DNA of 60,581 nt, counting the filler, from Nemertoderma westbladi (lineage: Eukaryota > Animalia > Xenacoelomorpha), in the NCBI GenBank assembly GCA_032718475.1. It is 3 parts of 3 records of this genome, joined end to end, with 100 filler letters (N's around TTAATTAATTAA, not from the genome) between each part and the next. Parts side by side here need not be neighbours in the genome. Positions count along the whole stretch, not along the records: positions 19,313 to 45,754 come from JAUCBJ010002575.1; 2 more parts are not named here. One strand, given 5' to 3'. A model generated the notes under the pieces. It was not told where the DNA came from, searched no databases, and saw only the letters and a program-made list of their open reading frames with translations. A program made the translations under genes and the position numbers. The stretch's first letter is position 1. Each line of letters starts with the position of its first letter. Below, in pieces: positions 19,721 to 45,754 of this stretch.

Positions 19721-19845
19721 AACAATTTCCCTGATCCCAATCCCGTGATCAATACATACTATACTGGGTTCTAGCTACATATTTTATGGGATGTAAATTT
19801 AATTACGAAAACAACTATATTAATTAGGCATATTCGTGCAATTAA

Positions 19846-20895: not shown

Positions 20896-23800
20896 GACTC
20901 ACCTTACACAATGCGCGGAGTTCCACGGTATAGTTGTCTACCAGTTGTGACTCACCCTACACAATGCGCGGAGTTCCACGGTATAGTTGTCTACCAGTTG
21001 TGACTCACCTTATACAATGCGCGGAGTTCCACGGTATAGTTGTCTACCAGTTGTGACTCACCTTATACAATGCGAGGAGTTCCACGGTATAGTTGTCTAC
21101 CAGTTGTGACTCACCTTATACAATGCGAGGAGTTCCACGGTATAGTTGTCTACCAGTTGTGACTCACCTTATACAATGCACGGAGTTCCGCGGTATAGTT
21201 GTCTACCAGTTGTGTCTCACCTTATACAATGCGCGGAGTTCCACGGTATAGTTGTCTACCAGTTGTGACTCACCTTATACAATGCGAGGAGTTCCACGGT
21301 ATAGTTGTCTACCAGTTGTGACTCACCTTATACAATGCGCTGAGTTCCACGGTATAGTTGTCTACCAGTTGTGACTCACCTTATACAATGCGCGGAGTTC
21401 CACGGTATAGTTGTCAACCAGTTGTGACTCACCTTATACAATGCGCGGAGTTCCACGGTATAGTTGTCTACCAGTTGTGACTCACCCTATACAATGCACG
21501 GAGTTCCACAGTATAGTTGTCTACCAGTGGTGACTCACCTTATACAATGCGCGGAGTTCCACGGTATAGTTGTCAACCAGTTGTGACTCACCCTACACAA
21601 TGCACGGAGTTCCACGGTATAGTTGTCTACCAGTTGTGACTCACCCTATACAATGCGCGGAGTTCCACGGTATAGTTGTCTACCAGTTGTGACTCACCCT
21701 ATACAATGCACGGAGTTCCACGGTATAGTTGTCTACCAGTTGTGACTCACCTTATACAATGCACGGAGTTCCACGGTATAGTTGTCAACCAGTTGTGACT
21801 CACCCTATACAATGCGAGGAGTTCCACGGTATAGTTGTCAACCAGTTGTGACTCACCTTATACAATGCACGGAGTTCCACGGTATAGTTGTCTACCAGTT
21901 GTGACTCACCTTATACAATGCGCGGAGTTCCACGGTATAGTTGTCTACCAGTTGTGACTCACCTTATACAATGCGCGGAGTTCCTCGGTATAGTTGTCTA
22001 CCAGTTGTGACTCACCTTATACAATGCGAGGAGTTCCACGGTATAGTTGTCTACCAGTTGTGACTCACCTTATACAATGCACGGAGTTCCACGGTATAGT
22101 TGTCTACCAGTTGTGACTCACCTTATACAATGCGCGGAGTTCCACGGTATAGTTGTCTACCAGTTGTGACTCACCTTATACAATGCGCGGAGTTCCACGG
22201 TATAGTTGTCTACCAGTTGTGACTCACCTTATACAATGCACGGAGTTCCACGGTATAGTTGTCTACCAGTTGTGACTCACCCTATACAATGCACGGAGTT
22301 CCACGGTATAGTTGTCTACCAGTTGTGACTCACCTTATACAATGCGCGGAGTTCCACGGTATAGTTGTCTACCAGTTGTGACTCACCCTATACAATGCGC
22401 GGAGTTCCACGGTATAGTTGTCTACCAGTTGTGACTCACCCTATACAATGCACGGAGTTCCACGGTATAGTTGTCTACCAGTTGTGACTCACCCTATACA
22501 ATGCACGGAGTTCCACGGTATAGTTGTCTACCAGTTGTGACTCACCTTATACAATGCACGGAGTTCCACGGTATAGTTGTCTACCAGTTGTGACTCACCC
22601 TATACAATGCACGGAGTTCCACGGTATAGTTGTCTACCAGTTGTGACTCACCTTATACAATGCGCGGAGTTCCACGGTATAGTTGTCTACCAGTTGTGAC
22701 TCACCTTATACAATGCGCGGAGTTCCACGGTATAGTTGTCTACCAGTTGTGACTCACCTTATACAATGCGCGGAGTTCCACGGTATAGTTGTCTACCAGT
22801 TGTGACTCACCTTATACAATGCACGGAGTTCCACGGTATAGTTGTCTACCAGTTGTGACTCACCTTATACAATGCGCGGAGTTCCACGGTATAGTTGTCT
22901 ACCAGTTGTGACTCACCCTATACAATGCGCGGAGTTCCACGGTATAGTTGTCTACCAGTTGTGACTCACCCTATACAATGCACGGAGTTCCACGGTATAG
23001 TTGTCTACCAGTTGTGACTCACCCTATACAATGCACGGAGTTCCACGGTATAGTTGTCTACCAGTTGTGACTCACCTTATACAATGCACGGAGTTCCACG
23101 GTATAGTTGTCTACCAGTTGTGACTCACCTTATACAATGCGCGGAGTTCCACGGTATAGTTGTCTACCAGTTGTGACTCACCTTATACAATGCGCGGAGT
23201 TCCACGGTATAGTTGTCTACCAGTTGTGACTCACCTTATACAATGCACGGAGTTCCACGGTATAGTTGTCTACCAGTTGTGACTCACCTTATACAATGCG
23301 CGGAGTTCCACGGTATAGTTGTCTACCAGTTGTGACTCACCCTATACAATGCGCGGAGTTCCACGGTATAGTTGTCTACCAGTTGTGACTCACCTTATAC
23401 AATGCACGGAGTTCCACGGTATAGTTGTCTACCAGTTGTGACTCACCTTATACAATGCGCGGAGTTCCACGGTATAGTTGTCTACCAGTTGTGACTCACC
23501 TTATACAATGCGCGGAGTTCCACGGTATAGTTGTCTACCAGTTGTGACTCACCTTATACAATGCGCGGAGTTCCACGGTATAGTTGTCTACCAGTTGTGA
23601 CTCACCTTATACAATGCACGGAGTTCCACGGTATAGTTGTCTACCAGTTGTGACTCACCTTATACAATGCACGGAGTTCCACGGTATAGTTGTCTACCAG
23701 TTGTGACTCACCCTATACAATGCACGGAGTTCCACGGTATAGTTGTCTACCAGTTGTGACTCACCTTATACAATGCGCGGAGTTCCACGGTATAGTTGTC

Positions 23801-26800
23801 TACCAGTTGTGACTCACCTTATACAATGCGCGGAGTTCCACGGTATAGTTGTCTACCAGTTGTGACTCACCTTATACAATGCGCGGAGTTCCACGGTATA
23901 GTTGTCTACCAGTTGTGACTCACCCTATACAATGCACGGAGTTCCACGGTATAGTTGTCTACCAGTTGTGACTCACCTTATACAATGCGAGGAGTTCCAC
24001 GGTATAGTTGTCTACCAGTTGTGACTCACCTTATACAATGCGAGGAGTTCCACGGTATAGTTGTCTACCAGTTGTGACTCACCTTATACAATGCACGGAG
24101 TTCCACGGTATAGTTGTCTACCAGTTGTGACTCACCTTATACAATGCACGGAGTTCCACGGTATAGTTGTCTACCAGTTGTGACTCACCTTATACAATGC
24201 ACGGAGTTCCACGGTATAGTTGTCTACCAGTTGTGACTCACCTTATACAATGCACGGAGTTCCACGGTATAGTTGTCTACCAGTTGTGACTCACCTTATA
24301 CAATGCGCGGAGTTCCACGGTATAGTTGTCTACCAGTTGTGACTCACCTTATACAATGCGACGGAGTTCCACGGTATAGTTGTCTACCAGTTGTGACTCA
24401 CCTTATACAATGCACGGAGTTCCACGGTATAGTTGTCTACCAGTTGTGACTCACCTTATACAATGCACGGAGTTCCACGGTATAGTTGTCTACCAGTTGT
24501 GACTCACCTTATACAATGCACGGAGTTCCACGGTATAGTTGTCTACCAGTTGTGACTCACCTTATACAATGCACGGAGTTCCACGGTATAGTTGTCTACC
24601 AGTTGTGACTCACCTTATACAATGCACGGAGTTCCACGGTATAGTTGTCTACCAGTTGTGACTCACCTTATACAATGCGCGGAGTTCCACGGTATAGTTG
24701 TCTACCAGTTGTGACTCACCTTATACAATGCACGGAGTTCCACGGTATAGTTGTCTACCAGTTGTGACTCACCTTATACAATGCACGGAGTTCCACGGTA
24801 TAGTTGTCTACCAGTTGTGACTCACCTTATACAATGCACGGAGTTCCACGGTATAGTTGTCTACCAGTTGTGACTCACCTTATACAATGCACGGAGTTCC
24901 ACGGTATAGTTGTCTACCAGTTGTGACTCACCTTATACAATGCACGGAGTTCCACGGTATAGTTGTCTACCAGTTGTGACTCACCTTATACAATGCGCGG
25001 AGTTCCACGGTATAGTTGTCTACCAGTTGTGACTCACCTTATACAATGCACGGAGTTCCACGGTATAGTTGTCTACCAGTTGTGACTCACCTTATACAAT
25101 GCGCGGAGTTCCACGGTATAGTTGTCTACCAGTTGTGACTCACCTTATACAATGCGCGGAGTTCCACGGTATAGTTGTCTACCAGTTGTGACTCACCTTA
25201 TACAATGCACGGAGTTCCACGGTATAGTTGTCTACCAGTTGTGACTCACCTTATACAATGCGCGGAGTTCCACGGTATAGTTGTCTACCAGTTGTGACTC
25301 ACCCTATACAATGCACGGAGTTCCACGGTATAGTTGTCTACCAGTTGTGACTCACCCTATACAATGCGAGGAGTTCCACGGTATAGTTGTCAACCAGTTG
25401 TGACTCACCCTATACAATGCACGGAGTTCCACGGTATAGTTGTCTACCAGTTGTGACTCACCCTATACAATGCGAGGAGTTCCACGGTATAGTTGTCTAC
25501 CAGTTGTGACTCACCTTATACAATGCACGGAGTTCCACGGTATAGTTGTCTACCAGTTGTGACTCACCTTATACAATGCGCGGAGTTCCACGGTATAGTT
25601 GTCTACCAGTTGTGACTCACCTTATACAATGCACGGAGTTCCACGGTATAGTTGTCTACCAGTTGTGACTCACCTTATACAATGCACGGAGTTCCACGGT
25701 ATAGTTGTCTACCAGTTGTGACTCACCTTATACAATGCACGGAGTTCCACGGTATAGTTGTCTACCAGTTGTGACTCACCTTATACAATGCGCGGAGTTC
25801 CACGGTATAGTTGTCTACCAGTTGTGACTCACCCTATACAATGCGACGGAGTTCCACGGTATAGTTGTCTACCAGTTGTGACTCACCTTATACAATGCGC
25901 GGAGTTCCACGGTATAGTTGTCTACCAGTTGTGACTCACCCTATACAATGCACGGAGTTCCACGGTATAGTTGTCTACCAGTTGTGACTCACCTTATACA
26001 ATGCGCGGAGTTCCACGGTATAGTTGTCTACCAGTTGTGACTCACCCTATACAATGCGAGGAGTTCCACGGTATAGTTGTCTACCAGTTGTGACTCACCT
26101 TATACAATGCACGGAGTTCCACGGTATAGTTGTCTACCAGTTGTGACTCACCTTATACAATGCGAGGAGTTCCACGGTATAGTTGTCTACCAGTTGTGAC
26201 TCACCTTATACAATGCGCGGAGTTCCACGGTATAGTTGTCTACCAGTTGTGACTCACCCTATACAATGCACGGAGTTCCACGGTATAGTTGTCTACCAGT
26301 TGTGACTCACCTTATACAATGCACGGAGTTCCACGGTATAGTTGTCTACCAGTTGTGACTCACCTTATACAATGCGAGGAGTTCCACGGTATAGTTGTCT
26401 ACCAGTTGTGACTCACCTTATACAATGCACGGAGTTCCACGGTATAGTTGTCTACCAGTTGTGACTCACCTTATACAATGCACGGAGTTCCACGGTATAG
26501 TTGTCTACCAGTTGTGACTCACCTTATACAATGCACGGAGTTCCACGGTATAGTTGTCTACCAGTTGTGACTCACCTTATACAATGCGAGGAGTTCCACG
26601 GTATAGTTGTCTACCAGTTGTGACTCACCTTATACAATGCACGGAGTTCCACGGTATAGTTGTCTACCAGTTGTGACTCACCTTATACAATGCACGGAGT
26701 TCCACGGTATAGTTGTCTACCAGTTGTGACTCACCTTATACAATGCACGGAGTTCCACGGTATAGTTGTCTACCAGTTGTGACTCACCTTATACAATGCA

Positions 26801-29800
26801 CGGAGTTCCACGGTATAGTTGTCTACCAGTTGTGACTCACCTTATACAATGCACGGAGTTCCACGGTATAGTTGTCTACCAGTTGTGACTCACCTTATAC
26901 AATGCACGGAGTTCCACGGTATAGTTGTCTACCAGTTGTGACTCACCTTATACAATGCACGGAGTTCCACGGTATAGTTGTCTACCAGTTGTGACTCACC
27001 TTATACAATGCACGGAGTTCCACGGTATAGTTGTCTACCAGTTGTGACTCACCTTATACAATGCGAGGAGTTCCACGGTATAGTTGTCTACCAGTTGTGA
27101 CTCACCTTATACAATGCACGGAGTTCCACGGTATAGTTGTCTACCAGTTGTGACTCACCTTATACAATGCACGGAGTTCCACGGTATAGTTGTCTACCAG
27201 TTGTGACTCACCTTATACAATGCACGGAGTTCCACGGTATAGTTGTCTACCAGTTGTGACTCACCTTATACAATGCACGGAGTTCCACGGTATAGTTGTC
27301 TACTAGTTGTGACTCACCTTATACAATGCGAGGAGTTCCACGGTATAGTTGTCTACCAGTTGTGACTCACCCTATACAATGCACGGAGTTCCACGGTATA
27401 GTTGTCTACCAGTTGTGACTCACCTTATACAATGCGAGGAGTTCCACGGTATAGTTGTCTACCAGTTGTGACTCACCTTATACAATGCGCGGAGTTCCAC
27501 GGTATAGTTGTCAACCAGTTGTGACTCACCCTATACAATGCACGGAGTTCCACGGTATAGTTGTCTACCAGTTGTGACTCACCTTATACAATGCGCGGAG
27601 TTCCACGGTATAGTTGTCAACCAGTTGTGACTCACCCTATACAATGCGAGGAGTTCCGCGGTATAGTTGTCAACCAGTTGTGACTCACCTTATACAATGC
27701 ACGGAGTTCCACGGTATAGTTGTCTACCGGTTGTGACTCACCCTATACAATGCGCGGAGTTCCACGGTATAGTTGTCTACCAGTTGTGTCTCACCCTATA
27801 CAATGCGAGGAGTTCCACGGTATAGTTGTCAACCAGTTGTGACTCACCTTATACAATGCACGGAGTTCCACGGTATAGTTGTCTACCAGTTGTGACTCAC
27901 CTTATACAATGCGCGGAGTTCCACGGTATAGTTGTCTACCAGTTGTGACTCATCCTATACAATGCACGGAGTTCCACGGTATAGTTGTCTACCAGTTGTG
28001 ACTCACCCTATACAATGCGAGGAGTTCCACGGTATAGTTGTCTACCAGTTGTGACTCACCCTATACAATGCGAGGAGTTCCACGGTATAGTTGTCTACCA
28101 GTTGTGACTCACCTTATACAATGCGCGGAGTTCCACGGTATAGTTGTCTACCAGTTGTGACTCACCTTATACAATGCGCGGAGTTCCTCGGTATAGTTGT
28201 CTACCAGTTGTGACTCACCTTATACAATGCGCGGAGTTCCTCGGTATAGTTGTCTACCAGTTGTGACTCACCTTATACAATGCGCGGAGTTCCACGGTAT
28301 AGTTGTCTACCAGTTGTGACTCACCCTATACAATGCGAGGAGTTCCACGGTATAGTTGTCTACCAGTTGTGACTCACCCTATACAATGCGAGGAGTTCCA
28401 CGGTATAGTTGTCTACCAGTTGTGACTCACCTTATACAATGCGCGGAGTTCCACGGTATAGTTGTCTACCAGTTGTGACTCACCTTATACAATGCGCGGA
28501 GTTCCTCGGTATAGTTGTCTACCAGTTGTGACTCACCTTATACAATGCGCGGAGTTCCTCGGTATAGTTGTCTACCAGTTGTGACTCACCTTATACAATG
28601 CGCGGAGTTCCACGGTATAGTTGTCTACCAGTTGTGACTCACCTTATACAATGCGCGGAGTTCCTCGGTATAGTTGTCTACCAGTTGTGACTCACCTTAT
28701 ACAATGCGCGGAGTTCCTCGGTATAGTTGTCTACCAGTTGTGACTCACCTTATACAATGCGCGGAGTTCCACGGTATAGTTGTCTACCAGTTGTGACTCA
28801 CCTTATACAATGCACGGAGTTCCACGGTATAGTTGTCTACTAGTTGTGACTCACCTTATACAATGCGCGGAGTTCCACGGTATAGTTGTCTACCAGTTGT
28901 GACTCACCTTATACAATGCGCGGAGTTCCACGGTATAGTTGTCTACCAGTTGTGACTCACCCTATACAATGCACGGAGTTCCACGGTATAGTTGTCTACC
29001 AGTTGTGACTCACCTTATACAATGCGCGGAGTTCCTCGGTATAGTTGTCTACCAGTTGTGACTCACCTTATACAATGCGCGGAGTTCCACGGTATAGTTG
29101 TCTACCAGTTGTGACTCACCCTATACAATGCGCGGAGTTCCACGGTATAGTTGTCTACCAGTTGTGACTCACCCTATACAATGCACGGAGTTCCACGGTA
29201 TAGTTGTCTACCAGTTGTGACTCACCTTATACAATGCGCGGAGTTCCTCGGTATAGTTGTCTACCAGTTGTGACTCACCTTATACAATGCGCGGAGTTCC
29301 ACGGTATAGTTGTCTACCAGTTGTGACTCACCTTATACAATGCGCGGAGTTCCACGGTATAGTTGTCTACCAGTTGTGACTCACCCTATACAATGCACGG
29401 AGTTCCACGGTATAGTTGTCTACCAGTTGTGACTCACCTTATACAATGCGCGGAGTTCCTCGGTATAGTTGTCTACCAGTTGTGACTCACCTTATACAAT
29501 GCGCGGAGTTCCACGGTATAGTTGTCTACCAGTTGTGACTCACCTTATACAATGCGCGGAGTTCCTCGGTATAGTTGTCTACCAGTTGTGACTCACCTTA
29601 TACAATGCGCGGAGTTCCTCGGTATAGTTGTCTACCAGTTGTGACTCACCTTATACAATGCGCGGAGTTCCACGGTATAGTTGTCTACCAGTTGTGACTC
29701 ACCTTATACAATGCACGGAGTTCCACGGTATAGTTGTCTACTAGTTGTGACTCACCTTATACAATGCGCGGAGTTCCACGGTATAGTTGTCTACCAGTTG

Positions 29801-32800
29801 TGACTCACCTTATACAATGCGCGGAGTTCCACGGTATAGTTGTCTACCAGTTGTGACTCACCCTATACAATGCGAGGAGTTCCGCGGTATAGTTGTCTAC
29901 CAGTTGTGACTCACCTTATACAATGCGCGGAGTTCCTCGGTATAGTTGTCTACCAGTTGTGACTCACCTTATACAATGCGCGGAGTTCCTCGGTATAGTT
30001 GTCTACCAGTTGTGACTCACCTTATACAATGCGCGGAGTTCCTCGGTATAGTTGTCTACCAGTTGTGACTCACCTTATACAATGCGCGGAGTTCCACGGT
30101 ATAGTTGTCTACCAGTTGTGACTCACCTTATACAATGCACGGAGTTCCACGGTATAGTTGTCTACTAGTTGTGACTCACCTTATACAATGCGCGGAGTTC
30201 CTCGGTATAGTTGTCTACCAGTTGTGACTCACCTTATACAATGCGCGGAGTTCCACGGTATAGTTGTCTACCAGTTGTGACTCACCTTATACAATGCGCG
30301 GAGTTCCTCGGTATAGTTGTCTACCAGTTGTGACTCACCTTATACAATGCGCGGAGTTCCTCGGTATAGTTGTCTACCAGTTGTGACTCACCTTATACAA
30401 TGCGCGGAGTTCCACGGTATAGTTGTCTACCAGTTGTGACTCACCTTATACAATGCACGGAGTTCCACGGTATAGTTGTCTACTAGTTGTGACTCACCTT
30501 ATACAATGCGCGGAGTTCCACGGTATAGTTGTCTACCAGTTGTGACTCACCTTATACAATGCGCGGAGTTCCACGGTATAGTTGTCTACCAGTTGTGACT
30601 CACCCTATACAATGCACGGAGTTCCTCGGTATAGTTGTCTACCAGTTGTGACTCACCTTATACAATGCGCGGAGTTCCACGGTATAGTTGTCTACCAGTT
30701 GTGACTCACCTTATACAATGCGCGGAGTTCCACGGTATAGTTGTCTACCAGTTGTGACTCACCCTATACAATGCACGGAGTTCCACGGTATAGTTGTCTA
30801 CCAGTTGTGACTCACCTTATACAATGCGCGGAGTTCCTCGGTATAGTTGTCTACCAGTTGTGACTCACCTTATACAATGCGCGGAGTTCCACGGTATAGT
30901 TGTCTACCAGTTGTGACTCACCTTATACAATGCACGGAGTTCCACGGTATAGTTGTCTACTAGTTGTGACTCACCTTATACAATGCGCGGAGTTCCACGG
31001 TATAGTTGTCTACCAGTTGTGACTCACCTTATACAATGCGCGGAGTTCCACGGTATAGTTGTCTACCAGTTGTGACTCACCTTATACAATGCGCGGACTT
31101 CCACGGTATAGTTGTCTACCAGTTGTGACTCACCTTATACAATGCGCGGAGTTCCACGGTATAGTTGTCTACCAGTTGTGACTCACCCTATACAATGCAC
31201 GGAGTTCCACGGTATAGTTGTCTACCAGTTGTGACTCACCTTATACAATGCGCGGAGTTCCACGGTATAGTTGTCTACCAGTTGTGACTCACCCTATACA
31301 ATGCGCGGAGTTCCACGGTATAGTTGTCTACCAGTTGTGACTCACCCTATACAATGCACGGAGTTCCACGGTATAGTTGTCTACCAGTTGTGACTCACCT
31401 TATACAATGCGCGGAGTTCCTCGGTATAGTTGTCTACCAGTTGTGACTCACCTTATACAATGCGCGGAGTTCCACGGTATAGTTGTCTACCAGTTGTGAC
31501 TCACCCTATACAATGCACGGAGTTCCACGGTATAGTTGTCTACCAGTTGTGACTCACCCTATACAATGCACGGAGTTCCACGGTATAGTTGTCTACCAGT
31601 TGTGACTCACCTTATACAATGCGCGGAGTTCCTCGGTATAGTTGTCTACCAGTTGTGACTCACCCTATACAATGCGCGGAGTTCCACGGTATAGTTGTCT
31701 ACCAGTTGTGACTCACCTTATACAATGCGCGGAGTTCCACGGTATAGTTGTCTACCAGTTGTGACTCACCCTATACAATGCGCGGAGTTCCACGGTATAG
31801 TTGTCTACCAGTTGTGACTCACCCTATACAATGCACGGAGTTCCACGGTATAGTTGTCTACCAGTTGTGACTCACCTTATACAATGCGCGGAGTTCCACG
31901 GTATAGTTGTCTACCAGTTGTGACTCACCCTATACAATGCGCGGAGTTCCACGGTATAGTTGTCTACCAGTTGTGACTCACCCTATACAATGCACGGAGT
32001 TCCACGGTATAGTTGTCTACCAGTTGTGACTCACCCTATACAATGCGCGGAGTTCCACGGTATAGTTGTCTACCAGTTGTGACTCACCCTATACAATGCA
32101 CGGAGTTCCACGGTATAGTTGTCTACCAGTTGTGACTCACCCTATACAATGCACGGAGTTCCACGGTATAGTTGTCTACCAGTTGTGACTCACCCTATAC
32201 AATGCACGGAGTTCCACGGTATAGTTGTCTACCAGTTGTGACTCACCTTATACAATGCGCGGAGTTCCTCGGTATAGTTGTCTACCAGTTGTGACTCACC
32301 CTATACAATGCGCGGAGTTCCACGGTATAGTTGTCTACCAGTTGTGACTCACCCTATACAATGCGCGGAGTTCCACGGTATAGTTGTCTACCAGTTGTGA
32401 CTCACCCTATACAATGCACGGAGTTCCACGGTATAGTTGTCTACCAGTTGTGACTCACCCTATACAATGCACGGAGTTCCACGGTATAGTTGTCTACCAG
32501 TTGTGACTCACCCTATACAATGCACGGAGTTCCACGGTATAGTTGTCTACCAGTTGTGACTCACCCTATACAATGCACGGAGTTCCACGGTCTAGTTGTC
32601 TACCAGTTGTGACTCACCCTATACAATGCACGGAGTTCCACGGTATAGTTGTCTACCAGTTGTGACTCACCTTATACAATGCGCGGAGTTCCTCGGTATA
32701 GTTGTCTACCAGTTGTGTCTCACCTTATACAATGCGCGGAGTTCCACGGTATAGTTGTCAACCAGTTGTGACTCACCCTATACAATGCGAGGAGTTCCGC

Positions 32801-33246
32801 GGTATAGTTGTCTACCAGTTGTGACTCACCTTATACAATGCACGGAGTTCCACTGTATAGTTGTCTACCAGTTGTGACTCACCTTATACAATGCGCGGAG
32901 TTCCACGGTATAGTTGTCTACCAGTTGTGACTCACCTTATACAATGCGCGGAGTTCCACGGTATAGTTGTCTACCAGTTGTGACTCACCCTATACAATGC
33001 ACGGAGTTCCACGGTATAGTTGTCTACCAGTTGTGACTCACCTTATACAATGCGCGGAGTTCCTCGGTATAGTTGTCTACCAGTTGTGACTCACCTTATA
33101 CAATGCGCGGAGTTCCACGGTATAGTTGTCTACCAGTTGTGACTCACCCTATACAATGCACGGAGTTCCACGGTATAGTTGTCTACCAGTTGTGACTCAC
33201 CTTATACAATGCGCGGAGTTCCACGGTATAGTTGTCTACCAGTTGT
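20896..33246 (-). repeat. 53-bp satellite, 233 copies, made of the exon-3 3' end plus its 5' splice site
   Basis: Minus-strand unit ACAACTGGTAGACAACTATACCGTGGAACTCCGCGCATTGTATAAG|GTGAGTC; 12351 bp = 233 x 53 plus two 1-nt insertions; the first copy is the end of exon 33349-33201. Confidence 0.97.
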
Positions 33247-33349
33247 TGGTAATATTCTTGAGATGCGATATCCATTCGCTCAGCTTCCTTTATGTTGACC
33301 TTGAGAGTGTCCATTATGTGAATAAGATCTTTGTATTTGGAAATGAGAA
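33201..33349 (-). CDS. Uncharacterised 328-aa protein, coding exon 3 (helical/coiled-coil-like)
   Basis: TTTTGCAG acceptor, phase 1; VLISKYKDLIHIMDTLKVNIKEAERMDIASQEYYQQLVDNYTVELRALYK; donor AAG|GTGAGT, phase 0, matching exon 4. Confidence 0.8.
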
Positions 33350-33798
33350 CTGCAAAACATGGGCGACTGATTCTTAATTCTTACAATATATATGGTTATA
33401 ACATGGATTGGAATACAACAGGTTGGTTTGTCCCAGCGAGGAAGTATTATACCGCTGCCTGAGATTTCTTAATCTCAATACAATAGTACGGTGCAGATTC
33501 AATATAAAATAATATAAGAAAGAAAGATAGGAAATAAAAATATAATAAAGGTAAAATACAATTCAATATTGAAATTGAAATAAATTGTTATAGTGTTCAT
33601 CCTTGGGAATTAGTTACAGACAACAGCCAAGATAGAGGAGCCTTTAATCTATAATCAAAATATATCAATATGTATACGATTTAATTAGAAACAACGTAAT
33701 CAATTCATTGTATAAAATATAGAAACTGATATAATTTAGACGCACTAAGCCCATCCAAATGACATACAAGCTGGAATATTTCATTGGCCATAAAACTA

Positions 33799-34464: not shown

Positions 34465-34611
34465 CCAGTTGGTTATGGATATGCTTTTATAATGCTTTGA
34501 TTCGGGGAAACCCGGATGGCGGATATCTCTCCATATGACTTAAAATTAATCGACGCCTACAATTTAGTCAGTAGCAATAAAAAATAAATTAAATATAAAT
34601 TATTAAATTAC

Positions 34612-34783
34612 CTTTAGTTTCATGTTCAAATTCTATGCGAAAGAAGTGGCGTTTATAATTATTAGTAGTTTCCCAATACGCTCGATCCGAGGAAATCTGG
34701 TCCAAGGCGCAAGCGAGATCGCGCAGGACAGCGAGGAGTTTTGGATCGTTTGGGTAGCGGTCGTCTTGGATCAGGGATTCTAT
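34612..34783 (-). CDS. Uncharacterised 328-aa protein, coding exon 2
   Basis: TTTGCTGCAG acceptor, phase 0; IESLIQDDRY..EHETK; donor AAG|GTAATT, phase 1. Confidence 0.78.
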
Positions 34784-35026
34784 CTGCAGCAAATTAATGC
34801 ATTGTCGTGAAATATATCGGTAAAAAAAACCTCCCCTGGGGGAAACTACGAATTAGTATTTGATTCACAGTAAATTGTGCGTACTGCTACTAGCTAGCTC
34901 GTCTACGTAATGTTAAATATTACATTTACTTATTGTTTGAAAGCAGGAAACTCCAGACTTAGTTAGTAAGGATTAGGTAGACTTAATAAGTCGGACTAAG
35001 TCACTGTGTGGGTATTATTAACTTAC

Positions 35027-35152
35027 CTTTTGCTTGGCCGCGGAGGCTTTAAAGTGAAAGTAATTCTCAGGCAGCGCATGGTCCACCAGGCTGTTACTGT
35101 TATTGCTGTGGGATATACCAACTGTCTGCACAACTCTCTCGTTAGCTGTCAT
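35027..35152 (-). CDS. Uncharacterised 328-aa protein, coding exon 1
   Basis: ATG at 35152; MTANERVVQ..AAKQK; donor AAG|GTAAGT, phase 0; the five exons sum to 987 nt with consistent phases. Confidence 0.72.
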
Positions 35153-35279
35153 AGTGAGGCTGGGGTTCTTTAGTATAATTTGTGATTGTAATTAATCGCA
35201 ACGTTTCCAATATATCTAATTGTTTATACTAAATTATTAAGTACGAATTAAGAATAACTATTTCTTTTATATTAACATT

Positions 35280-35402
35280 TTTGTCCGACTTTATAATCCG
35301 CATTTTCGACGAATAGGTAAAGTTTATTTCCTTTCGAGGCCGAAGGCAGAGGAAAAAAATATTTTACTATTTCGAGGAAATGCGGATTATAAAGAGGACG
35401 AA
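35280..35402. mobile_element. Palindromic MITE-like repeat
   Basis: CTTTATAATCCGCATTT / AAATGCGGATTATAAAG arms around GAGGCCGAAGGCAGAG. Confidence 0.6.
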
Positions 35403-36894
35403 ATATACTTTCCTTTTTTTACAAGATTTTGTTTTCTTTAAAATATTCACTTTTAAATTAATTATAAGTTTAACGTAACAAAGTTATCGCACATTTGAGG
35501 TAAATTATCCACCATTGTGTAATTAAATAATACAAGCTACTATATACTAGCTATTCTTTGTGAGTGAAGGTGATATTCCAGAACGTTAATCAAATAATCA
35601 AACCAAAAATTTGATTAAACTAGCTACTGGAACAGAAGATCCTACAACTAAACATTTTAATGCTAAATTTATTAATAATTAACAACGCAATTAATGATCT
35701 GTAATAAATAATGCGAAATCAACAGAATAAACTTCTAGATCATTGATTGGATAAAATATTTTATTAATCTAATTTTTGGAAGATTGATTGGATAATAACT
35801 TTATTGTCCGCAAATGTGTACATTAAAGTCTTTATTGTCCGCACTTTTGCGGACAATAAAGGGGATGTTTTAAAAGAAAATTATTTCCTATTTGTAATGG
35901 TTCAATGCGTTATGAGATAAATAGATGCGCAGCTCAAAACAATCTATACCGGTTAAAATTTTTCATTTCTATGGTAACAGAATAGCATAAGTACCAGTAT
36001 TTAGAGATTCAAATAGAACACATAATTTTGTATAATTAACGCATTTTTATTGGTCACTAAAGCAATTGTTTTTTCCACTAAATTAAATGGTTTTTATTCC
36101 AAAATTGTAACATTACTCAACGCCGTTAGTATTAACAGCGAGTTGTAATTTAGCACTTTACAACTTTAGAGGACATTACAGCATTGTTCGTAATGTTAAA
36201 ATTTTGGAATAAAACTACATACATACACCATGTCCCGTAATACAGTTGTCATTTTCTGATGACACGGACCCCCCCCCCCCCCAGATTTTTCTTCAAATCT
36301 GTATCATATTGCTTGAAATTTGAAATACCACTAGTTCCACTCACCGTTGATGACCCCATGAAGCCGGAATTGTCGATTTTGCCTTTAAATTCTTTTTATA
36401 AGCGTTTTAAAATGTAACAATATCTGAATTTCATTGAGAAACAGCTGAGATATTGGCGTTCAAAGATTGCAAGTTCGCTGCAGGCCATTTATTATATTTA
36501 ATAAATACACAAAATTCTAGAACGTATTATTTATTTTATGAGTTGGTTGGCAACGGCGGTAATCCTATCCAATATTATCTATTGCGTAGCTATTCATACT
36601 TAAACAAATTGTTCCAGAACATCGTGTATTTATTAAATAGAATAAATGGCCTTCAGCGGACAATACTTCTTGCAATCTTTCAACGACTATATCTCAGTTG
36701 TTTCTCAACAAAATTCATATATTGTTATATATTTCGAATCCTTGCAAGGCAAGCTTTTTAATGATATGAAAAAAATTACGGCTAATGTCAAGAATGGCCA
36801 CGATACGGAGGGTGCGATTTCGCAAAAGACACTTTTTAAAAACGCGTATAAAAATAATTTAAAGGTAAAATCGAAAATTCCGGCTTCATGGTAA

Positions 36895-37641
36895 GGCCCC
36901 CCTCAAACGGAGAAACTTGTTTCTGCAACTTGTTTCTGAAACTTGTTGCTGGGCCCCCTCACACACAGAAACTTGTTGCTGCAACTTGTTTCCGAAACTT
37001 GTTTCTGTGTGTGAGGACTCCAGCAACAAGTTTCTGCAACTTGTTTCCACAACTTATTTCTGTGTGTGAGGGAGTCCAGCAACAAATTGCTGGAAGTTAT
37101 ATACCCAGCAACTTTTTGAAAAACTTTTATTACATTCCATTTTGATACTAGCACATATTAGATAATTTGAGTGATGTGATCTATACCTATAAAAATCAAA
37201 TTCTCTCTCTCTCTCTCTGTTCGAACTCCTCCAAAACGGGCAGAGGGATTGCGCTGGAACTTGGCATGTGTGTATAACTTTAACCAGCGGTCGTTATAGG
37301 CCACTTTTCGAAAAGTTTAATTCACGTTCGGTACCGGTACTAAGTACCGGTACGTCAGTAGGCCTATACCGGTACCAGTACGCCAGTAGGCCTATGCCGG
37401 TAGCAGGAAATACCGGGTAACATGCCTCGGGTATTGTCTGCTAGTATTATATATAAATGACTGGACATATTAGCTATTTATTTGGAAATAATTGTTATTT
37501 TCTTCAGCAACAAGTTTCGGTGTGTGAGGGGGTCCAGCAACAAGTTTCGGAAACAAGTTGCTGAAACAAGTTGCAGCAACAAGTTTATGTGTGTGAGGGG
37601 GGTCCAGCAACAAGTTTCAGTTGCCCCGTGTGAGGGGGGCC
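36895..37641. mobile_element. PIF/Harbinger-type MITE with TAA duplication
   Basis: TIR GGCCCCCCTCA(A/C)ACGG; TAA at 36892-36894 and 37642-37644; mirrored AACTTGTT / AACAAGTT sub-repeats; interrupts the right TIR of the outer element. Confidence 0.85.
37180..37444 (+). mobile_element. Non-autonomous Helitron
   Basis: Inserted between A and T; starts TCTATAC, ends CTAG; sub-terminal hairpin ATACCGGG..CTCGGGTAT; (CT)n near the 5' end. Confidence 0.75.
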
Positions 37642-38365
37642 TAACAACCACGGTGAGTTGAACTAGTTGTGTTTCAAATTTCAAGCAATATGATAAAGAT
37701 TTGTAGAACAATCTGGTTGGGGGGGGTCCGTGTCGTCAGAAAATGACACTATATTACGGGACATGGTATACTTGTTGCAAAGTACTTTACAGTGTTCTGA
37801 TCCTCGTGGCTTTATTTTCACTCACTCACTATCGTTCGTTCGTGTAGCAACGCCACTAGGATCATTACACTGTAAAGTGCTACTTACACACAAGTATGTA
37901 AATAGTTATTTTCACGAGATTTTTGTCACTAAAATCCCTCCTCTAAAATGAATTAATTATTATTAAATTATTTATTATTAAATATTTAATATATTAATAT
38001 TTATTTAATATTAATATATTATAGTAAGTCTGTTAGCGTAACGGTATGTCAACTAAACATCTTCACGAAAAAAAAGTTTAGTGGCGAACTTTATTCCCAA
38101 AACTGAGTAAGTTACTGTAGTTAAATTGCACCACTTTAGCTTAATGCATGAAGTGCACTTCATGCATACCTGCGCGCTGCGCCCTAACCCTAACATATAT
38201 GTACTGTAGTATAGGCCTGAATGTATGTAGTATAGGCCTGAATGTATGTAGCATAGGCCTGAATGTAGTTACTACTATATAAAAGATTATTGATATTATT
38301 AATAATAATTAATTATACAGCCTACTGTCTACCTTGTTTGGTTATTGGTTGCATGATATTCAGGT

Positions 38366-38384
38366 GTTGTTGCCAGGTAACAAC
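38366..38384. promoter_or_regulatory. RFX X-box-like palindrome in a putative bidirectional promoter
   Basis: GTTGTTGCCAGGTAACAAC; lies between a minus-strand donor (AAG|GTAGAC at 38333) and the plus-strand ATG at 38543; CCAAT at about 38416. Confidence 0.55.
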
Positions 38385-38542
38385 AACATCATTTCTTGTG
38401 AGAATAAATAGCCAACCAATAAATAAGCAAGGCCTTCTTTATAAATCAGTTTTACTTCAATCAGTTTAGTTAATAATTTATTAGTTTCTCAAGTCGTATT
38501 GTTATTTACTGCTTTATTAGAAGAAAGGACGCTGGACAAGAA

Positions 38543-38617
38543 ATGGCTGCGATATTTTCTCCTGCATCACCGGATGATATATTGTTTAACCGGAACGGAT
38601 GTACTAGTTGTTTGCAG
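38543..38617 (+). CDS. Uncharacterised plus-strand gene, first coding exon
   Basis: MAAIFSPASPDDILFNRNGCTSCLQ; strong donor CAG|GTAAGT, phase 0. Confidence 0.55.
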
Positions 38618-38699
38618 GTAAGTAAACAGGTTGGGCTGTGAATAAATAATATTTTTTTTAACGATTGATTTTTAAGGAATTAACATCCTAACTTCTGGG

Positions 38700-41381
38700 A
38701 GACTGGCTAAGAAGTTTCGTAAGGTGGTTCTGATTGTGTGCTACTCTCCAACTAGTGTTGCCCCTGTAGAGGAGGTGGAAAATTTCTAACAGAATCTACA
38801 ACTGATGGAGCTACTGATGGAGTGGATCAGCATGCATTCTTAACATTCCTGGGAGACTTTAATGCAAGTCTGCATCAATCACCTACATCGCCCTGGGTCT
38901 ATAGCAATAGTGTTAACCGAAATTCCGTCCATCTTCAGGATTTTATCTCTGGAAATGGATTGTTTTCGGCTGGAACCCAGTTCAAGAAGCGAACTGGAAA
39001 GCTATGGACTCATAGTGGACCCAGTGGTCACAAGTCCCAGATAGACCATATCCTGTTTCCTAGGAAATACAGGAGCTCCATACAAGACTGTAATGCATTT
39101 ACACTACGACCCTTCTCCAGTGATCACCGCCTTATTGTGGCCAAGGTAAGACTTAGTCTGCGTGCTAGCAGAACAACGAAATCTGCCTTGCCGCGGCATG
39201 ACTGGTCCTCTCTGTTGCAACAGCCAAGTGTGAGATCCAGCTTCACACTACAGCTGAGCAACAGGTATGAGGTTCTTGCCTCTGAGGCGGCAGATCACTG
39301 TGAGGGCTATACTGCCTTCACAGAGGCAGTTAAGTTAGCAGCTGCAGAAACAGTTCCTGTATACCCTCGAAACAGGAAACGGGCCCCCTGGACTGACAAC
39401 AAAATTCAGAAGTACCGAAATGACCTCTACAAGGCGCAGAAAGAGTCCCGACTCAAACAGACTACAGCGGCCAAGACTGCAGTTAAGGCTGCATCTAGGT
39501 CCCTGAACAGGCAGTACTCTGTTAATTTACAGGAGCTAATAAACCAACAGGTTGATGCCATCAATGATGCTGACGACAGCAGGCAATCATCCCAGGCATG
39601 GAGATTGATCAACTTGCTTGCTGGTCGAAAAAGCCAACCAACCACCAAGGTTAAGGCTGAATCACCAGCCGATCGCCTCAATGGTTGGAAGGCCCACTTT
39701 GAAAAGCTCCTAAAAAATGACAGGGTATTGCCTGATAACTTTATAGAAGTAAAAGTGTCTGAGTCTGTACTCCCAGATATTCCCATTGGTGATATCTCCT
39801 TTGCAGAAGTGAAGGCTGCTGCAAACAGCATTAAGACCAATCGTGCCAGTGGAGTAGATGGTGTTCCCCCTGAGGTCTTTAAAATACCTGAGTGTTTAAA
39901 GCTCATCTATCCCATCATAGTAGACATGTACCGAACAACAAGAGTCCCACAAGTGATGAAAACAAATAAGTTGGTGCCAGTTCCCAAGAAGGGCAACCTA
40001 ACACTCTATGGTTCTTTTCGGGGAATCTCATTGATCTCGATTGCTGCAAAGCTATACAATAGAATTCTATTAAATCGTATCAGGGATCTCATTGAGAGAC
40101 TACTCCGTGGAAATCAGAATGGGTTCCGTAAAGGTCGTGGGACCATGGAGCCCATTTTGGCACTTAGAAGGATAATTGAAGAGTTATCAAAAAAGAAAGA
40201 CAGGCATCTGGCTGTTATCTTTGTTGACTTCTTCAAAGCCTTTGATTCAGTCTCTCGCTCACGTATGTTCAGCATACTTTCATTATATTGGATTCCTTAT
40301 GAAATTATTGCAGCAATCAGATCAGTATACGATGGTTCGACAACATTTGTGTCTACTGTTGACGGTGACACAGAACCATTTGAAGTGTTATGGGGCGTCC
40401 TCCAGGGAGACACACTTGCACCATTCTTGTTCATAATTGTTGTTTTCTATGCTCTACGCATGTCCTTAGATCATCATAATGATAATGGGGTGATGATAAC
40501 TCCACCTACTGGCTCCAGAAGTCGAGGAAGTCCTGCCAAGTACCTAACTGATCTAGACTTTGCTGATGACTTAGGAGTACTCTCAGAATCACTAGAGGGA
40601 GCCCAACGGCTCCTCAGCTCATTAGAACATGCTGCTTCTAGTGTTGGTCTTTTTATTAACTCCAGATAGACCAAAATTTTGACAGTTAACTTTGAAAGTC
40701 CTCAGCAAGTCTCTGATCGGATGAGCATAAGCTCAAACGATGGTATGCTTGAGCATGTGGACGACTTCTGTTACCTGGGATCATGGATCCGGAAGTCAGG
40801 TGAGGACCTTCGAATACGTAAGGGAAAGGCATGGGCAGCCTTGAATAGGCTTTCCAGGATTTGGAAGTCACCGAGAATTAATCGGAAACTTAAGGTCCGA
40901 TTATTTAGAGCAGCAGTAGTTCCAGTACTCCTCTATGGGAGTCCATGCTGGGCTCTAACTGCTGAGGACACCAGATCTCTGGATGGCACATTCACAAGAA
41001 TGCTACGCCGGGTTCATTGTGTTAAGTACGATGCACACATCTCCAACCAGACACTATATAACATTGGAGGTGTCTCATTTGTTCCCCCAAGCTTGACACT
41101 AGAACAAGCTCGCCTCCGCTTTGCAGGACATTTGCTTTCGCCGCGAGGACCAGCCAGTGCATAATCTTGTACTTTGGCAGCCTCATGGAGTGAATAAGCA
41201 TGGTGGACAGCCCATGACTTTCTTGAGACGCATCTTAATGGACACTGGCCTTGAAGATGCGGATGATCTAGCAAATGTCATGGGTGATAGGGAGTTGTGG
41301 CGGTGCAATTTTGTCGATAAGCCGGCACAGCATTCTTAAAAATGCAGCTGCAATGCAGCATGCCGATCCTAGTAGTATTAG
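38700..41381 (+). mobile_element. LINE family B (APE endonuclease plus reverse transcriptase), 5'-truncated and mildly decayed
   Basis: CYSPT, GDFNA, SQIDHI, SDHRL, QNGFRKGR, FVDFFKAFDSV, GVLQGDTLAP, DFADDL; stop at 40667, frameshift near 41143; TAG-type tail; intronic. Confidence 0.95.
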
Positions 41382-41528
41382 TTACATAATTAGGTCCACC
41401 ATTGTGCTGTTTATTTTAAGTATGATGTACCTTTAATAACTACAGTAATAATAATAATAATAATAATTGCATTATACATGTAATATTTCGATGATTATAC
41501 TTTTCCATTCTAATTCGTTTTCCTTTAG

Positions 41529-41673
41529 GGAATAAATGATGTGAATCACCCATCGGTAAGATTAACTGAAACTCTAATTGAAATATTGAATCGTCTAGGG
41601 AAGGTAATAGGCGTATGTCGGGAGGAAATCAGAAGTAACATTGAATACCAGACTGATGGACCGGTGGTTAGAT
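41529..41673 (+). CDS. Uncharacterised plus-strand gene, second coding exon
   Basis: TTTTCCTTTAG acceptor; the only open frame (GINDVNHPSVRL..EYQTDGPVVR) is in phase with exon 1; donor AT|GTAAGT; a competing donor CG|GTAAGA exists at 41556. Confidence 0.55.
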
Positions 41674-44600
41674 GTAAGTATATGGAGGGGGGGACATTGA
41701 ATACCAGACTGATGGACCGGTGGTTAGATGTAAGTATATGGAGGGGGGAACACTGAATACCAGACTGATGGACCGGTGGTTAGATGTAAGTATATGGAGG
41801 GAGGGACATTGAATACCAGACTGATGGACCGGTGGTTAGATGTAAGTATATGGAGGGAGGGACATTGAATACCAGACTGATGGACCGGTGGTTAGATGTA
41901 AGTATATGGAGGGGGGACATTGAATACCAGACTGATGGACCGGTGGTTAGATGTAAGTATATGGAGGGGGGAACATTGAATACCAGACTGATGGACCGGT
42001 GGTTAGATGTAAGTATATGGAGGGGGGACATTGAATACCAGACTGATGGACCGGTGGTTAGATGTAAGTATATGGAGCGGGGAACATTGAATACCAGACT
42101 GACTGATGGACCGGTGGTTAGATGTAAGTATATGGAGGGGGGAACATTGAATACCAGACTGATGGACCGGTGGTTAGATGTAAGTATATGGAGGGGGGGA
42201 CATTGAATACCAGACTGATGGACCGGTGGTTAGATGTAAGTATATGGAGCGGGGAACATTGAATACCAGACTGATGGACCGGTGGTTAGATGTAAGTATA
42301 TGGAGGGGGGACATTGAATACCAGACTGACTGATGGACCGGTGGTTAGATGTAAGTATATGGAGCGGGGAACATTGAATACCAGACTGATGGACCGGTGG
42401 TTAGATGTAAGTATATGGAGGGGGGAACATTGAATACCAGACTGACTGATGGACCGGTGGTTAGATGTAAGTATATGGAGGGGGGAACATTGAATACCAG
42501 ACTGACTGATGGACCGGTGGTTAGATGTAAGTATATGGAGGGGGGAACATTGAATACCAGACTGACTGATGGACCGGTGGTTAGATGTAAGTATATGGAG
42601 GGGGGAACATTGAATACCAGACTGACTGATGGACCGGTGGTTAGATGTAAGTATATGGAGGGGGGAACATTGAATACCAGACTGATGGACCGGTGGTTAG
42701 ATGTAAGTATATGGAGGGGGGAACATTGAATACCAGACTGACTGATGGACCGGTGGTTAGATGTAAGTATATGGAGGGGGGAACATTGAATACCAGACTG
42801 ATGGACCGGTGGTTAGATGTAAGTATATGGAGGGGGGGACATTGAATACCAGACTGACTGATGGACCGGTGGTTAGATGTAAGTATATGGAGGGGGAACA
42901 TTGAATACCAGACTGATGGACCGGTGGTTAGATGTAAGTATATGGAGGGGGGAACATTGAATACCAGACTGACTGATGGACCGGTGGTTAGATGTAAGTA
43001 TATGGAGGGGGGAACATTGAATACCAGACTGACTGATGGACCGGTGGTTAGATGTAAGTATATGGAGGGGGGAACATTGAATACCAGACTGATGATGGAC
43101 CGGTGGTTAGATGTAAGTATATGGAGGGGGGAACATTGAATACCAGACTGACTGATGGACCGGTGGTTAGATGTAAGTATATGGAGGGGGGAACATTGAA
43201 TACCAGACTGACTGATGGACCGGTGGTTAGATGTAAGTATATGGAGGGGGGAACATTGAATACCAGACTGACTGATGGACCGGTGGTTAGATGTAAGTAT
43301 ATGGAGGGGGGAACATTGAATACCAGACTGATGGACCGGTGGTTAGATGTAAGTATATGGAGGGGGGAACATTGAATACCAGACTGACTGATGGACCGGT
43401 GGTTAGATGTAAGTATATGGAGGGGGGACATTGAATACCAGACTGACTGATGACCGGTGGTTAGATGTAAGTATATGGAGGGGGAACACTGAATACCAGA
43501 CTGATGGACCGGTGGTTAGATGTAAGTATATGGAGGGGGGAACATTGAATACCAGACTGATGGACCGGTGGTTAGATGTAAGTATATGGAGGGGGGAACA
43601 TTGAATACCAGACTGATGGACCGGTGGTTAGATGTAAGTATATGGAGGGGGGAACACTGAATACCAGACTGATGGACCGGTGGTTAGATGTAAGTATATG
43701 GAGGGGGGACATTGAATACCAGACTGACTGATGGACCGGTGGTTAGATGTAAGTATATGGAGGGGGGACATTGAATACCAGACTGATGGACCGGTGGTTA
43801 GATGTAAGTATATGGAGGGGGGAACATTGAATACCAGACTGATGGACCGGTGGTTAGATGTAAGTATATGGAGGGGGGAACATTGAATACCAGACTGATG
43901 GACCGGTGGTTAGATGTAAGTATATGGAGGGGGGAACACTGAATACCAGACTGATGGACCGGTGGTTAGATGTAAGTATATGGAGGGGGGACATTGAATA
44001 CCAGACTGATGGACCGGTGGTTAGATGTAAGTATATGGAGGGGGGACATTGAATACCAGACTGATGGACCGGTGGTTAGATGTAAGTATATGGAGGGAGG
44101 GACATTGAATACCAGACTGATGGACCGGTGGTTAGATGTAAGTATATGGAGGGGGGACATTGAATACCAGACTGATGGACCGGTGGTTAGATGTAAGTAT
44201 ATGGAGCGGGGGACATTGAATACCAGACTGATGGACCGGTGGTTAGATGTAAGTATATGGAGGGGGGGACATTGAATACCAGACTGATGGACCGGTGGTT
44301 AGATGTAAGTATATGGAGCGGGGGACACTGAATACCAGACTGATGGACCGGTGGTTAGATGTAAGTATATGGAGGGGGGAACATTGAATACCAGACTGAT
44401 GGACCGGTGGTTAGATGTAAGTATATGGAGCGGGGAACATTGAATACCAGACTGATGGACCGGTGGTTAGATGTAAGTATATGGAGGGGGGAACATTGAA
44501 TACCAGACTGATGGACCGGTGGTTAGATGTAAGTATATGGAGCGGGGAACATTGAATACCAGACTGACTGATGGACCGGTGGTTAGATGTAAGTATATGG

Positions 44601-45754
44601 AGGGGGGAACATTGAATACCAGACTGACTGATGGACCGGTGGTTAGATGTAAGTATATGGAGGGGGGAACATTGAATACCAGACTGACTGATGGACCGGT
44701 GGTTAGATGTAAGTATATGGAGGGGGGAACATTGAATACCAGACTGATGTGACCGGTGGTTAGATGTAAGTATATGGAGGGGGGAACATTGAATACCAGA
44801 CTGACTGATGGACCGGTGGTTAGATGTAAGTATATGGAGGGGGGAACATTGAATACCAGACTGATGGACCGGTGGTTAGATGTAAGTATATGGAGGGGGG
44901 AACATTGAATACCAGACTGACTGATGGACCGGTGGTTAGATGTAAGTATATGGAGGGGGGAACATTGAATACCAGACTGATGGACCGGTGGTTAGATGTA
45001 AGTATATGGAGGGGGGGACATGTGGACCGGTGGTTAGATGTAAGTATATGGAGGGGGGAACATTGAATACCATGACTGATGGACCGGTGGTTAGATGTAA
45101 GTATATGGAGGGGGAACATTGAATACCAGACTGATGGACCGGTGGTTAGATGTAAGTATATGGAGGGGGGACATTGAATACCATGACTGATGGACCGGTG
45201 GTTAGATGTAAGTATATGGAGGGGGGAACATTGAATACCAGACTGACTGATGGACCGGTGGTTAGATGTAAGTATATGGAGCGGGGAACATTGAATACCA
45301 GACTGATGGACCGGTGGTTAGATGTAAGTATATGGAGGGGGGACATTGAATACCAGACTGACTGATGGACCAGTGCGGTGGTTAGATGTAAGTATATGGA
45401 GGGGGGAACATTGAATACCAGACTGACTGATGGACCGGTGGTTAGATGTAAGTATATGGAGGGGGGAACATTGAATACCAGACTGAATGATGGACCGGTG
45501 GTTAGATGTAAGTATATGGAGGGGGGAACATTGAATACCAGACTGACTGATGGACCGGTGGTTAGATGTAAGTATATGGAGGGGGGAACATTGAATACCA
45601 GACTGACTGATGGACCGGTGGTTAGATGTAAGTATATGGAGGGGGGAACATTGAATACCAGACTGATGGACCGGTGGTTAGATGTAAGTATATGGAGGGG
45701 GGGGGGGGGGGGGGGGGGGGCACTGAATACCAGACTGATGGACCGGTGGTTAGA
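41638..45754 (+). repeat. 55-60-bp satellite, about 70 copies, made of the exon 3' end plus 5' splice site
   Basis: Unit ACATTGAATACCAGACT(GACT)GATGGACCGGTGGTTAGAT|GTAAGTATATGGAGGGGGGA; the first copy is continuous with unique exon sequence; runs into the gap. Confidence 0.95.

What the first reader, a model, noticed from the sequence alone, without database searches (positions are those of the whole stretch)
20896..45754. Recurrent splice-junction satellites: candidate genome-wide mechanism
Seen: both genes of one head-to-head pair carry a locus-specific array that starts inside an exon, crosses the donor, expands into the intron in transcript orientation and has a similar unit size (53-60 bp). 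Inference: either repeat birth is coupled to transcription or splicing at junctions (R-loops, polymerase pausing), or selection tolerates only duplications that leave the first exon/donor copy intact. Established: tandem duplication of AGGT-containing segments is a proposed route to intron gain, and these arrays would be raw material for it. I cannot confirm novelty without a literature search.
Basis: inference. Interest (0 to 1): 0.85.

Follow-up and report, generated by a model that had tools for sequence, protein, structure and literature searches.

The report
Two splice-donor minisatellites in neighbouring genes
In two back-to-back genes of an unnamed animal, the end of an exon plus its splice signal has been copied 233 and at least 71 times into the next intron, the assembled RNA uses only the first copy, and the pair is likely an unusually large example of a repeat type already known from human genes rather than proof of a genome-wide mechanism.

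Summary
Array 1 (20895-33245, 53 bp x 233) repeats 45 exon and 8 intron bases of gene A. Array 2 (41637-45754, mostly 55-60 bp, at least 71 copies, ending in a gap) repeats about 37 exon and 19 intron bases of gene B. Spliced contigs confirm both genes, the head-to-head layout and use of the first donor; gene A's contig skips all 12.7 kb. Later donors would truncate or frameshift the proteins.

'Starts in exon, crosses donor, expands into intron in transcript orientation' is what any tandem duplication across a donor looks like. Array 2 has no AGGT, and array 1's AGGT is the existing junction, so the AGGT intron-gain model does not fit. Only array 2 has R-loop-type G skew. Two of 11 RNA-testable repeat loci cover a donor (0.18 expected), but the region was chosen for those two. 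No genome is held, so enrichment is untested.

The class is known (human F7, CBS, 6-16, lamin B2, PDGF; PMC1557585), and this scan found it before in other genomes. One extra: both RNA samples end the exon with an array variant (Lys to Arg codon).

The parts
35027..35259 (-). Gene A exon 1 (contains the start codon of a 328-aa frame; no family found)
   Evidence: X4 contig piece and CT..AC joint; translation
34612..34783 (-). Gene A exon 2
   Evidence: joints 34783/35027 and 33349/34612
33201..33349 (-). Gene A exon 3; its last 45 nt are the exon part of array-1 copy 1; the used donor follows 33201
   Evidence: X4 and X5 pieces; the five exons sum to 1531 nt, the contig length
20895..33245 (-). 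Array 1: 233 units of 53 bp (45 exon + 8 intron nt); copies 2-233 lie in intron 3 (12,671 nt; 373 nt without the expansion)
20283..20529 (-). Gene A exon 4, joined directly to exon 3 across the whole array
   Evidence: X4 and X5 record coordinates and loose end matching exon 3
19409..20138 (-). Gene A exon 5 with stop and 3' UTR
   Evidence: joint 20136/20281, CT..AC
35260..38447 (.). Region between the two contig 5' ends; inferred bidirectional promoter region, with dispersed repeats
   Evidence: 5' ends of X4 contigs; promoter function inferred
38448..38617 (+). Gene B exon 1
   Evidence: X4 record 16 piece 38448-38615, 3-nt cut ambiguity; donor context
38696..41376 (+). Reverse-transcriptase retroelement in gene B intron 1, absent from the X1 and X3 contigs
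   Evidence: RVT_1 hit; X1 record 4 and X3 record 12 join the flanks
41529..41673 (+). Gene B exon 2; its last ~37 nt are the exon part of array-2 copy 1; the used donor follows 41673
   Evidence: X4 record 16 piece ends at 41673; depth arithmetic
41637..45754 (+). Array 2: at least 71 units, mostly 55-60 bp (~37 exon + ~19 intron nt), running into an assembly gap

Best explanation
Each array is a donor-spanning minisatellite of the human F7/CBS type whose first copy supplies the working exon end and splice donor, likely born as an ordinary side-by-side duplication across the donor and likely expanded by local unequal exchange or slippage. Shown: unit anatomy, first-donor use in the assembled RNA, removal of the whole 12.7-kb intron of gene A, premature stops or frameshifts if later donors were used, regional clustering of unit variants. 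Inferred: the first donor wins by exon definition or 5'-to-3' scanning; rare use of later donors would be cleared as nonsense transcripts; the copies are near-neutral intron mass; exchanges at the exon-side edge can swap an array variant into the coding copy.
For: The gene A contig of 1531 nt equals five exons with one exon-part copy. Bin depths in X4 match the single spliced contig alone (132.9, 66.2, 166.8, 23.2 observed and computed), so no other X4 contig holds the intron part of a unit. Later donors give 154 aa instead of 328 (232 of 232 tested). Array-1 breakpoint shares only 1 base between flank and unit end. Adjacent units are identical 0.259 of the time against 0.156 in shuffles (max 0.228 in 200), and variants are regional. 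Of 15 distinct variants in the exon part, 10 are non-synonymous, one a stop, so the copies are not held to the code. 32 tandem loci in 60.6 kb. Unit GC 0.46-0.47 equals gene A coding GC 0.47 against 0.32 in its other introns. Precedent with first-donor use: PMC1557585 (abstract, Discussion, Introduction passages).
Against: 2 of the 3 long, young arrays in the window with units of 40 bp or more and 20 or more copies sit on donors, and the post hoc chance estimate is low (P 0.013-0.040). The scan has met the same thing in at least eight other windows of other genomes (unchecked notes). Contigs drop rare forms, so minor use of later donors is not excluded; human CBS and 6-16 use two extra donors (PMC1557585 passage). 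Synonymous variants are 5 of 15 against 31 of 135 possible, a slight and non-decisive excess.
Confidence: 0.65

Rival explanations
1. Shared local cause: both arrays flank one bidirectional promoter region, and meiotic breaks near promoters would seed and expand minisatellites in nearby GC-richer sequence, which in this AT-rich genome means exon edges. Donors are hit as bystanders.
For: The used donors lie 2.06 kb and 0.54 kb (retroelement removed) from the contig 5' ends. In PRDM9-independent species recombination concentrates at promoters (PMC11706403, passages). Human hotspots show side-by-side duplications and insertion bias in tandem repeats (PMC7615360, passages).
Against: No recombination map or PRDM9 status for this organism. 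Hotspot duplications in the human study mostly show microhomology, whereas array 1 shows 1 base. Gene A donors 1 and 2, nearer the promoter, carry no array.
Confidence: 0.15
2. One reading: repeat birth is coupled to transcription or splicing at 5' splice sites (pausing, R-loops, spliceosome-linked breaks), so donor-spanning arrays are enriched genome-wide.
For: 2 of 11 RNA-testable repeat loci on donors against 0.18 expected; strong sense-strand G skew in array 2; many similar cases in this scan's notes, including one gene with about one exon end in six copied (unchecked).
Against: Post hoc sample of two neighbouring loci; 4 of 6 RNA-confirmed donors and 5 of 5 acceptors carry no array; no skew in array 1; no shared motif, fold or breakpoint signature; the scan's notes are selected for being noticeable.
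Confidence: 0.12
3. The arrays are functional splicing elements: array 1's repeated AG|GT sites act as recursive splice points, or the donor ladder tunes expression through unproductive splicing that depends on array length.
For: 167 AGGT sites in array 1; pyrimidine fraction before the junction AG (0.67 in the variant examined) is within the range of real acceptors, 0.60-0.80; 232 of 233 GT intact; human tandem repeats can alter splicing (PMC10078293, abstract and passages).
Against: Array 2 has no AGGT; the junction acceptor would mostly be AAG, whereas the five real acceptors end in CAG or TAG; intact GT is expected at 97% unit identity; no RNA contig holds any intron part of a unit.
Confidence: 0.05
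4. The arrays, or their lengths, are assembly artefacts.
For: Array 2 ends in a gap and a long G run; its depth in X1 and X3 is only about 10 times single copy.
Against: Two DNA runs from two studies break inside both arrays and show about 100-200 times depth on array 1; 30 distinct unit types in non-random order.
Confidence: 0.03

Closest known systems
Human F7 intron 7 37-bp VNTR (Borensztajn et al. 2006, PMC1557585; abstract, Discussion and Introduction passages read)
   Same: First monomer spans the exon-intron boundary; identical pseudo-donors follow in the intron; only the most upstream donor is used.
   Different: F7 has 5-9 copies with 4 exon nt per unit; here 233 and at least 71 copies with 45 and about 37 exon nt, in two adjacent genes of an unnamed animal.
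Human CBS intron 13 (15-20 repeats), interferon-inducible 6-16 intron 2 (25 pseudo-sites), lamin B2 (100-bp unit) and PDGF intron 4 (81-bp unit) minisatellites, as listed in the Introduction of PMC1557585 (passage only; originals not read)
   Same: Junction reiterated in the following intron; unit sizes bracket 53-60 bp; lamin B2 and PDGF use only the authentic donor.
   Different: CBS and 6-16 also use two proximal pseudo-sites, not seen here in contigs; arrays here are 3-15 times longer in copy number.
Intron gain by tandem duplication of an exonic AGGT segment (Rogers model; ATP2A1; potato RdRp), from PMC4974935 (passages)
   Same: Local tandem duplication involving splice signals.
   Different: The model duplicates an exonic AGGT and creates a new intron. 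Here an existing donor is duplicated, no new intron or exon appears in the RNA, and array 2 has no AGGT.
Variable internal tandem repeats at exon-intron boundaries of human duplicated genes (De Grassi and Ciccarelli 2009, PMC2812944; passages)
   Same: Minisatellite expansion at exon-intron boundaries elongates introns; 27 intron modifications after curation.
   Different: Those are primate paralogs, with short arrays (about 4 x 30 bp) that often change splicing; here no change in the mature RNA is seen.

Membership tests
Donor-spanning minisatellite (F7 IVS7 type) | First monomer spans a real exon-intron boundary | tested here: met
   RNA contigs end the exons at 33201 and 41673, inside copy 1
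Donor-spanning minisatellite (F7 IVS7 type) | Donor sequence reiterated head-to-tail in the following intron | tested here: met
   232 of 233 and 71 of 71 donors intact
Donor-spanning minisatellite (F7 IVS7 type) | Most upstream donor used; later ones silent or minor | tested here: met
   Contig length and depth arithmetic; contigs cannot exclude rare use; gene B rests on one run
Donor-spanning minisatellite (F7 IVS7 type) | Copy number varies between individuals | tested here: inconclusive
   Depth ratios differ between X1, X3 and the assembly, but contig depth is no copy number
Donor-spanning minisatellite (F7 IVS7 type) | Pseudo-donors become active when the first donor is mutated | not testable with these tools
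   Needs a minigene
AGGT tandem-duplication intron gain (Rogers model) | Duplicated segment is exonic and contains AGGT | tested here: not met
   Array 2 has 0 AGGT; array 1's AGGT is the old junction
AGGT tandem-duplication intron gain (Rogers model) | A new intron appears in the spliced RNA | tested here: not met
   Gene A RNA shows one intron across the whole array
Recursive splice sites (definition recalled, no call) | Intronic YAG|GT preceded by a pyrimidine tract | tested here: inconclusive
   167 AG|GT sites in array 1, mostly AAG; moderate pyrimidine content; none in array 2
Recursive splice sites (definition recalled, no call) | Splicing intermediates at those sites in nascent RNA | not testable with these tools
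   Only assembled contigs were available
   2 of 11 loci against 0.18 expected, post hoc; no genome held

The most novel reading that the evidence does not exclude
Minisatellites in animals are born preferentially across 5' splice donors, through a splicing- or promoter-coupled break process, and once grown they act as an unselected pool that writes variants back into the last codons of the coding exon. The Lys-to-Arg codon at the end of gene A exon 3 in both RNA samples, a variant carried by 24 of the 39 exon-proximal units, would be such an event.
Probability: 0.12. Interest if true: 0.65.

Novelty: new member of a known kind. Interest (0 to 1): 0.27.

Why it matters
As it stands this is a large natural test of 5' splice-site choice: one donor is picked among 232 near-identical ones in a non-model animal, and one intron has grown from about 0.37 to 12.7 kb from a copy of its own junction. 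If a genome-wide excess at donors were shown, it would tie the birth of minisatellites to gene architecture and give a route for intron growth and exon-end variation. The present evidence does not show that excess.

Tried and rejected
No whole genome is held, so the proposed genome-wide test could not be run. Run search: 6 runs listed, no RNA holder on record; two of them turned out to give spliced contigs.

Gene identity: no Pfam family for 8 exon frames of genes A and B among 16 proteins scanned, of which only one unrelated frame matched. No homologue for gene A exon 2 or gene B exon 2 (7 and 5 candidates, none at E<=0.01; weak evidence). Atlas hits for exon 4 all under 0.8. The mitoribosomal-L10-like frame at 865-1629 is not in the protein collection and had no homologue there, so the organism was not placed.

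Hairpin-driven slippage: z-scores of two-unit folds +0.33 to +2.12, no excess stability. Shared repeat family: units match nothing else in the window. Explaining the RNA's exon-end variant by a 53-nt intron between copies 1 and 2: rejected, since the only AG|GT in the unit would keep copy 1's end. In-frame 48-nt cassette exons from array-1 units: formally possible, weak acceptor (pyrimidine fraction 0.40), not in the contigs.

X1 shows no cover at 19600-20551 and 20608-20887; the tool says a hole proves nothing.

Literature: searches showed no paper, by title or abstract start, that tests genome-wide enrichment of minisatellites at splice junctions; the library lacks most subscription papers. 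No supplements were read; those of PMC10078293 and PMC2812944 may hold counts of junction-spanning repeats. Scan look-ups by place and for an enrichment test returned nothing.

Full report
What is there. TRF gives 60 rows that merge into 32 tandem loci. The two in question are a 53-bp array of 233 units (20895-33245) and a 55-60-bp array of at least 71 units (41637-45754) that runs into an assembly gap.

Gene structure from RNA. Six runs were listed, none on record as RNA. I laid four of the six. X4 and X5 (two samples, two studies) gave contigs that skip CT..AC intervals, so they behave as RNA. A 1531-nt X4 contig maps to five minus-strand exons (35259-35027, 34783-34612, 33349-33201, 20529-20283, 20138-19409) whose lengths sum to exactly 1531 nt and give a 328-aa frame. 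Exon 3 joins exon 4 with a single copy of the 45 exon bases between them, so the whole 12,671-nt intron is removed from the first donor. A 1057-nt X4 contig maps to 38448-38615 and 41527-41673 on the plus strand and then leaves the stretch, that is, at the first donor of array 2. Bin depths equal what these single contigs give alone, so no further X4 contig carries the intron part of either unit. Contigs drop rare forms, so minor use of later donors is not excluded. Neither protein was identified.

The arrays are real. DNA runs X1 and X3 break 30 bases inside each array and show roughly 95-210-fold depth on array 1 and roughly 9-12-fold on array 2. The tool warns that this is not a copy number; the lower figure for array 2 counts against taking 71 as typical.

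How it likely works. Array 1's unit is 45 exon plus 8 intron bases; the last unit runs on into the original intron, and flank and unit end share one base. That is a side-by-side duplication with little microhomology. Thirty unit types occur; neighbours are identical more often than in any of 200 shuffles, an 8-unit block recurs (shuffle maximum 7), and variants are regional, as expected from local unequal exchange or slippage (inference). Ten of 15 distinct variants in the exon part are non-synonymous, one a stop. Any later donor in gene A gives 154 aa because the read-through meets a stop five codons on. In gene B donor 2 adds 56 nt, and a stop at 41754 precedes donor 3. Harmlessness therefore depends on first-donor use, which F7 minigenes attribute to 5'-to-3' scanning (PMC1557585, Discussion read).

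One unexpected detail. Both RNA contigs end exon 3 with TAT AGG (Arg) where the window's first copy has TAT AAG (Lys) (letters CTAT; window letters). That G is in 66 of 233 units and in 24 of the 39 nearest the exon. Either the coding copy exchanges sequence with the array, or the assembly's first copy was polished to the majority unit. I could not separate these.

The proposed mechanism. Starting in an exon, crossing the donor and extending into the intron in transcript orientation are one fact: a head-to-tail duplication across a donor must look so. Selection for an intact first copy explains survival but predicts no excess over intron interiors. In the two RNA-laid stretches 2 of 11 repeat loci cover a donor and none an acceptor; 4 of 6 donors and 5 of 5 acceptors have no array; random placement expects 0.18 (P 0.013; 0.040 with acceptors). 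Other arrays with 42- and 61-bp units show only weak donor motifs. G skew on the sense strand is +0.52 in array 2 and +0.06 in array 1, and folds are no more stable than shuffles. Unit GC matches coding GC (0.47) against 0.32 in introns, so a composition bias could draw arrays to exon edges without any splicing link (inference). A promoter-proximal break hotspot is a further rival (PMC11706403 and PMC7615360, passages), untested in this organism. The AGGT model needs an exonic AGGT (PMC4974935, passages); array 2 has none and array 1's is the old junction. The genome-wide test could not be run.

Comparison with what is known. Minisatellites whose first monomer spans an exon-intron boundary are described for human F7, 6-16, CBS, lamin B2 and PDGF (PMC1557585, Introduction passage; found). 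Repeats at exon-intron boundaries were also surveyed in human duplicated genes (PMC2812944, passages). This scan's notes list eight similar cases in other genomes, one with almost 300 copies and one where the last donor is used (unchecked). Searches showed no genome-wide enrichment test, within a library that lacks most subscription papers; no supplements were read.

Verdict. Observation confirmed and strengthened by RNA; interpretation partly supported. Two large new members of a known class. The enrichment question is open but cannot be advanced from two neighbouring loci. Interest 0.27; the novel reading has probability about 0.12 and would merit about 0.65.

Noticed in passing
window 38696-41376 (+): Reverse-transcriptase retroelement (RVT_1) in gene B intron 1 is missing from contigs of both DNA runs X1 and X3, which join the flanks with about 60 other letters between: a polymorphic or recent insertion.
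   Followed up: partly
window 33201-33203 (-): Both RNA samples read AGG (Arg) at the last codon of gene A exon 3 where the window reads AAG (Lys); the G variant dominates the exon-proximal array units.
   Followed up: partly
window 865-1629 (-): Intronless, strongly diverged frame matching mitochondrial ribosomal protein L10; not found in the protein collection.
   Followed up: partly
window 3923-4904 (+): 982-bp G-rich 17-18-bp array (GC skew 0.97 in 4001-5000) with a donor-like AAG|GTATGG motif, starting 40 bp after the stop of a proline-rich last exon that recalls the HERPUD C-terminus (recalled; no Pfam hit). Not RNA-tested.
   Followed up: no
window 55252-56186: 42-bp x 22 array, 99% identical and open in three frames; no strong splice motif; seems to sit in decayed mobile-element sequence (by eye).
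   Followed up: partly
window 10221-10676: 61-bp x 7.4 array whose unit holds an acceptor-like pyrimidine-AG motif on either strand, with AT-rich, non-coding-looking flanks. Not RNA-tested.
   Followed up: partly
window 19314-19467: The 3' end of gene A's contig (19409) lies in a 19-bp repeat that is dispersed in the genome (many loose ends), next to an assembly gap.
   Followed up: no
window 14631-18020 (+) and 58690-58921 (+): Further multi-exon genes with canonical donors and no arrays at them (by eye); the 58.7-kb exon matches DUF4728/Mtp.
   Followed up: no
window 47900-51780 (-), 11400-12700 (-), 18430-19212 (-): Several more reverse-transcriptase element copies and fragments (two scanned, both RVT_1).
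   Followed up: partly
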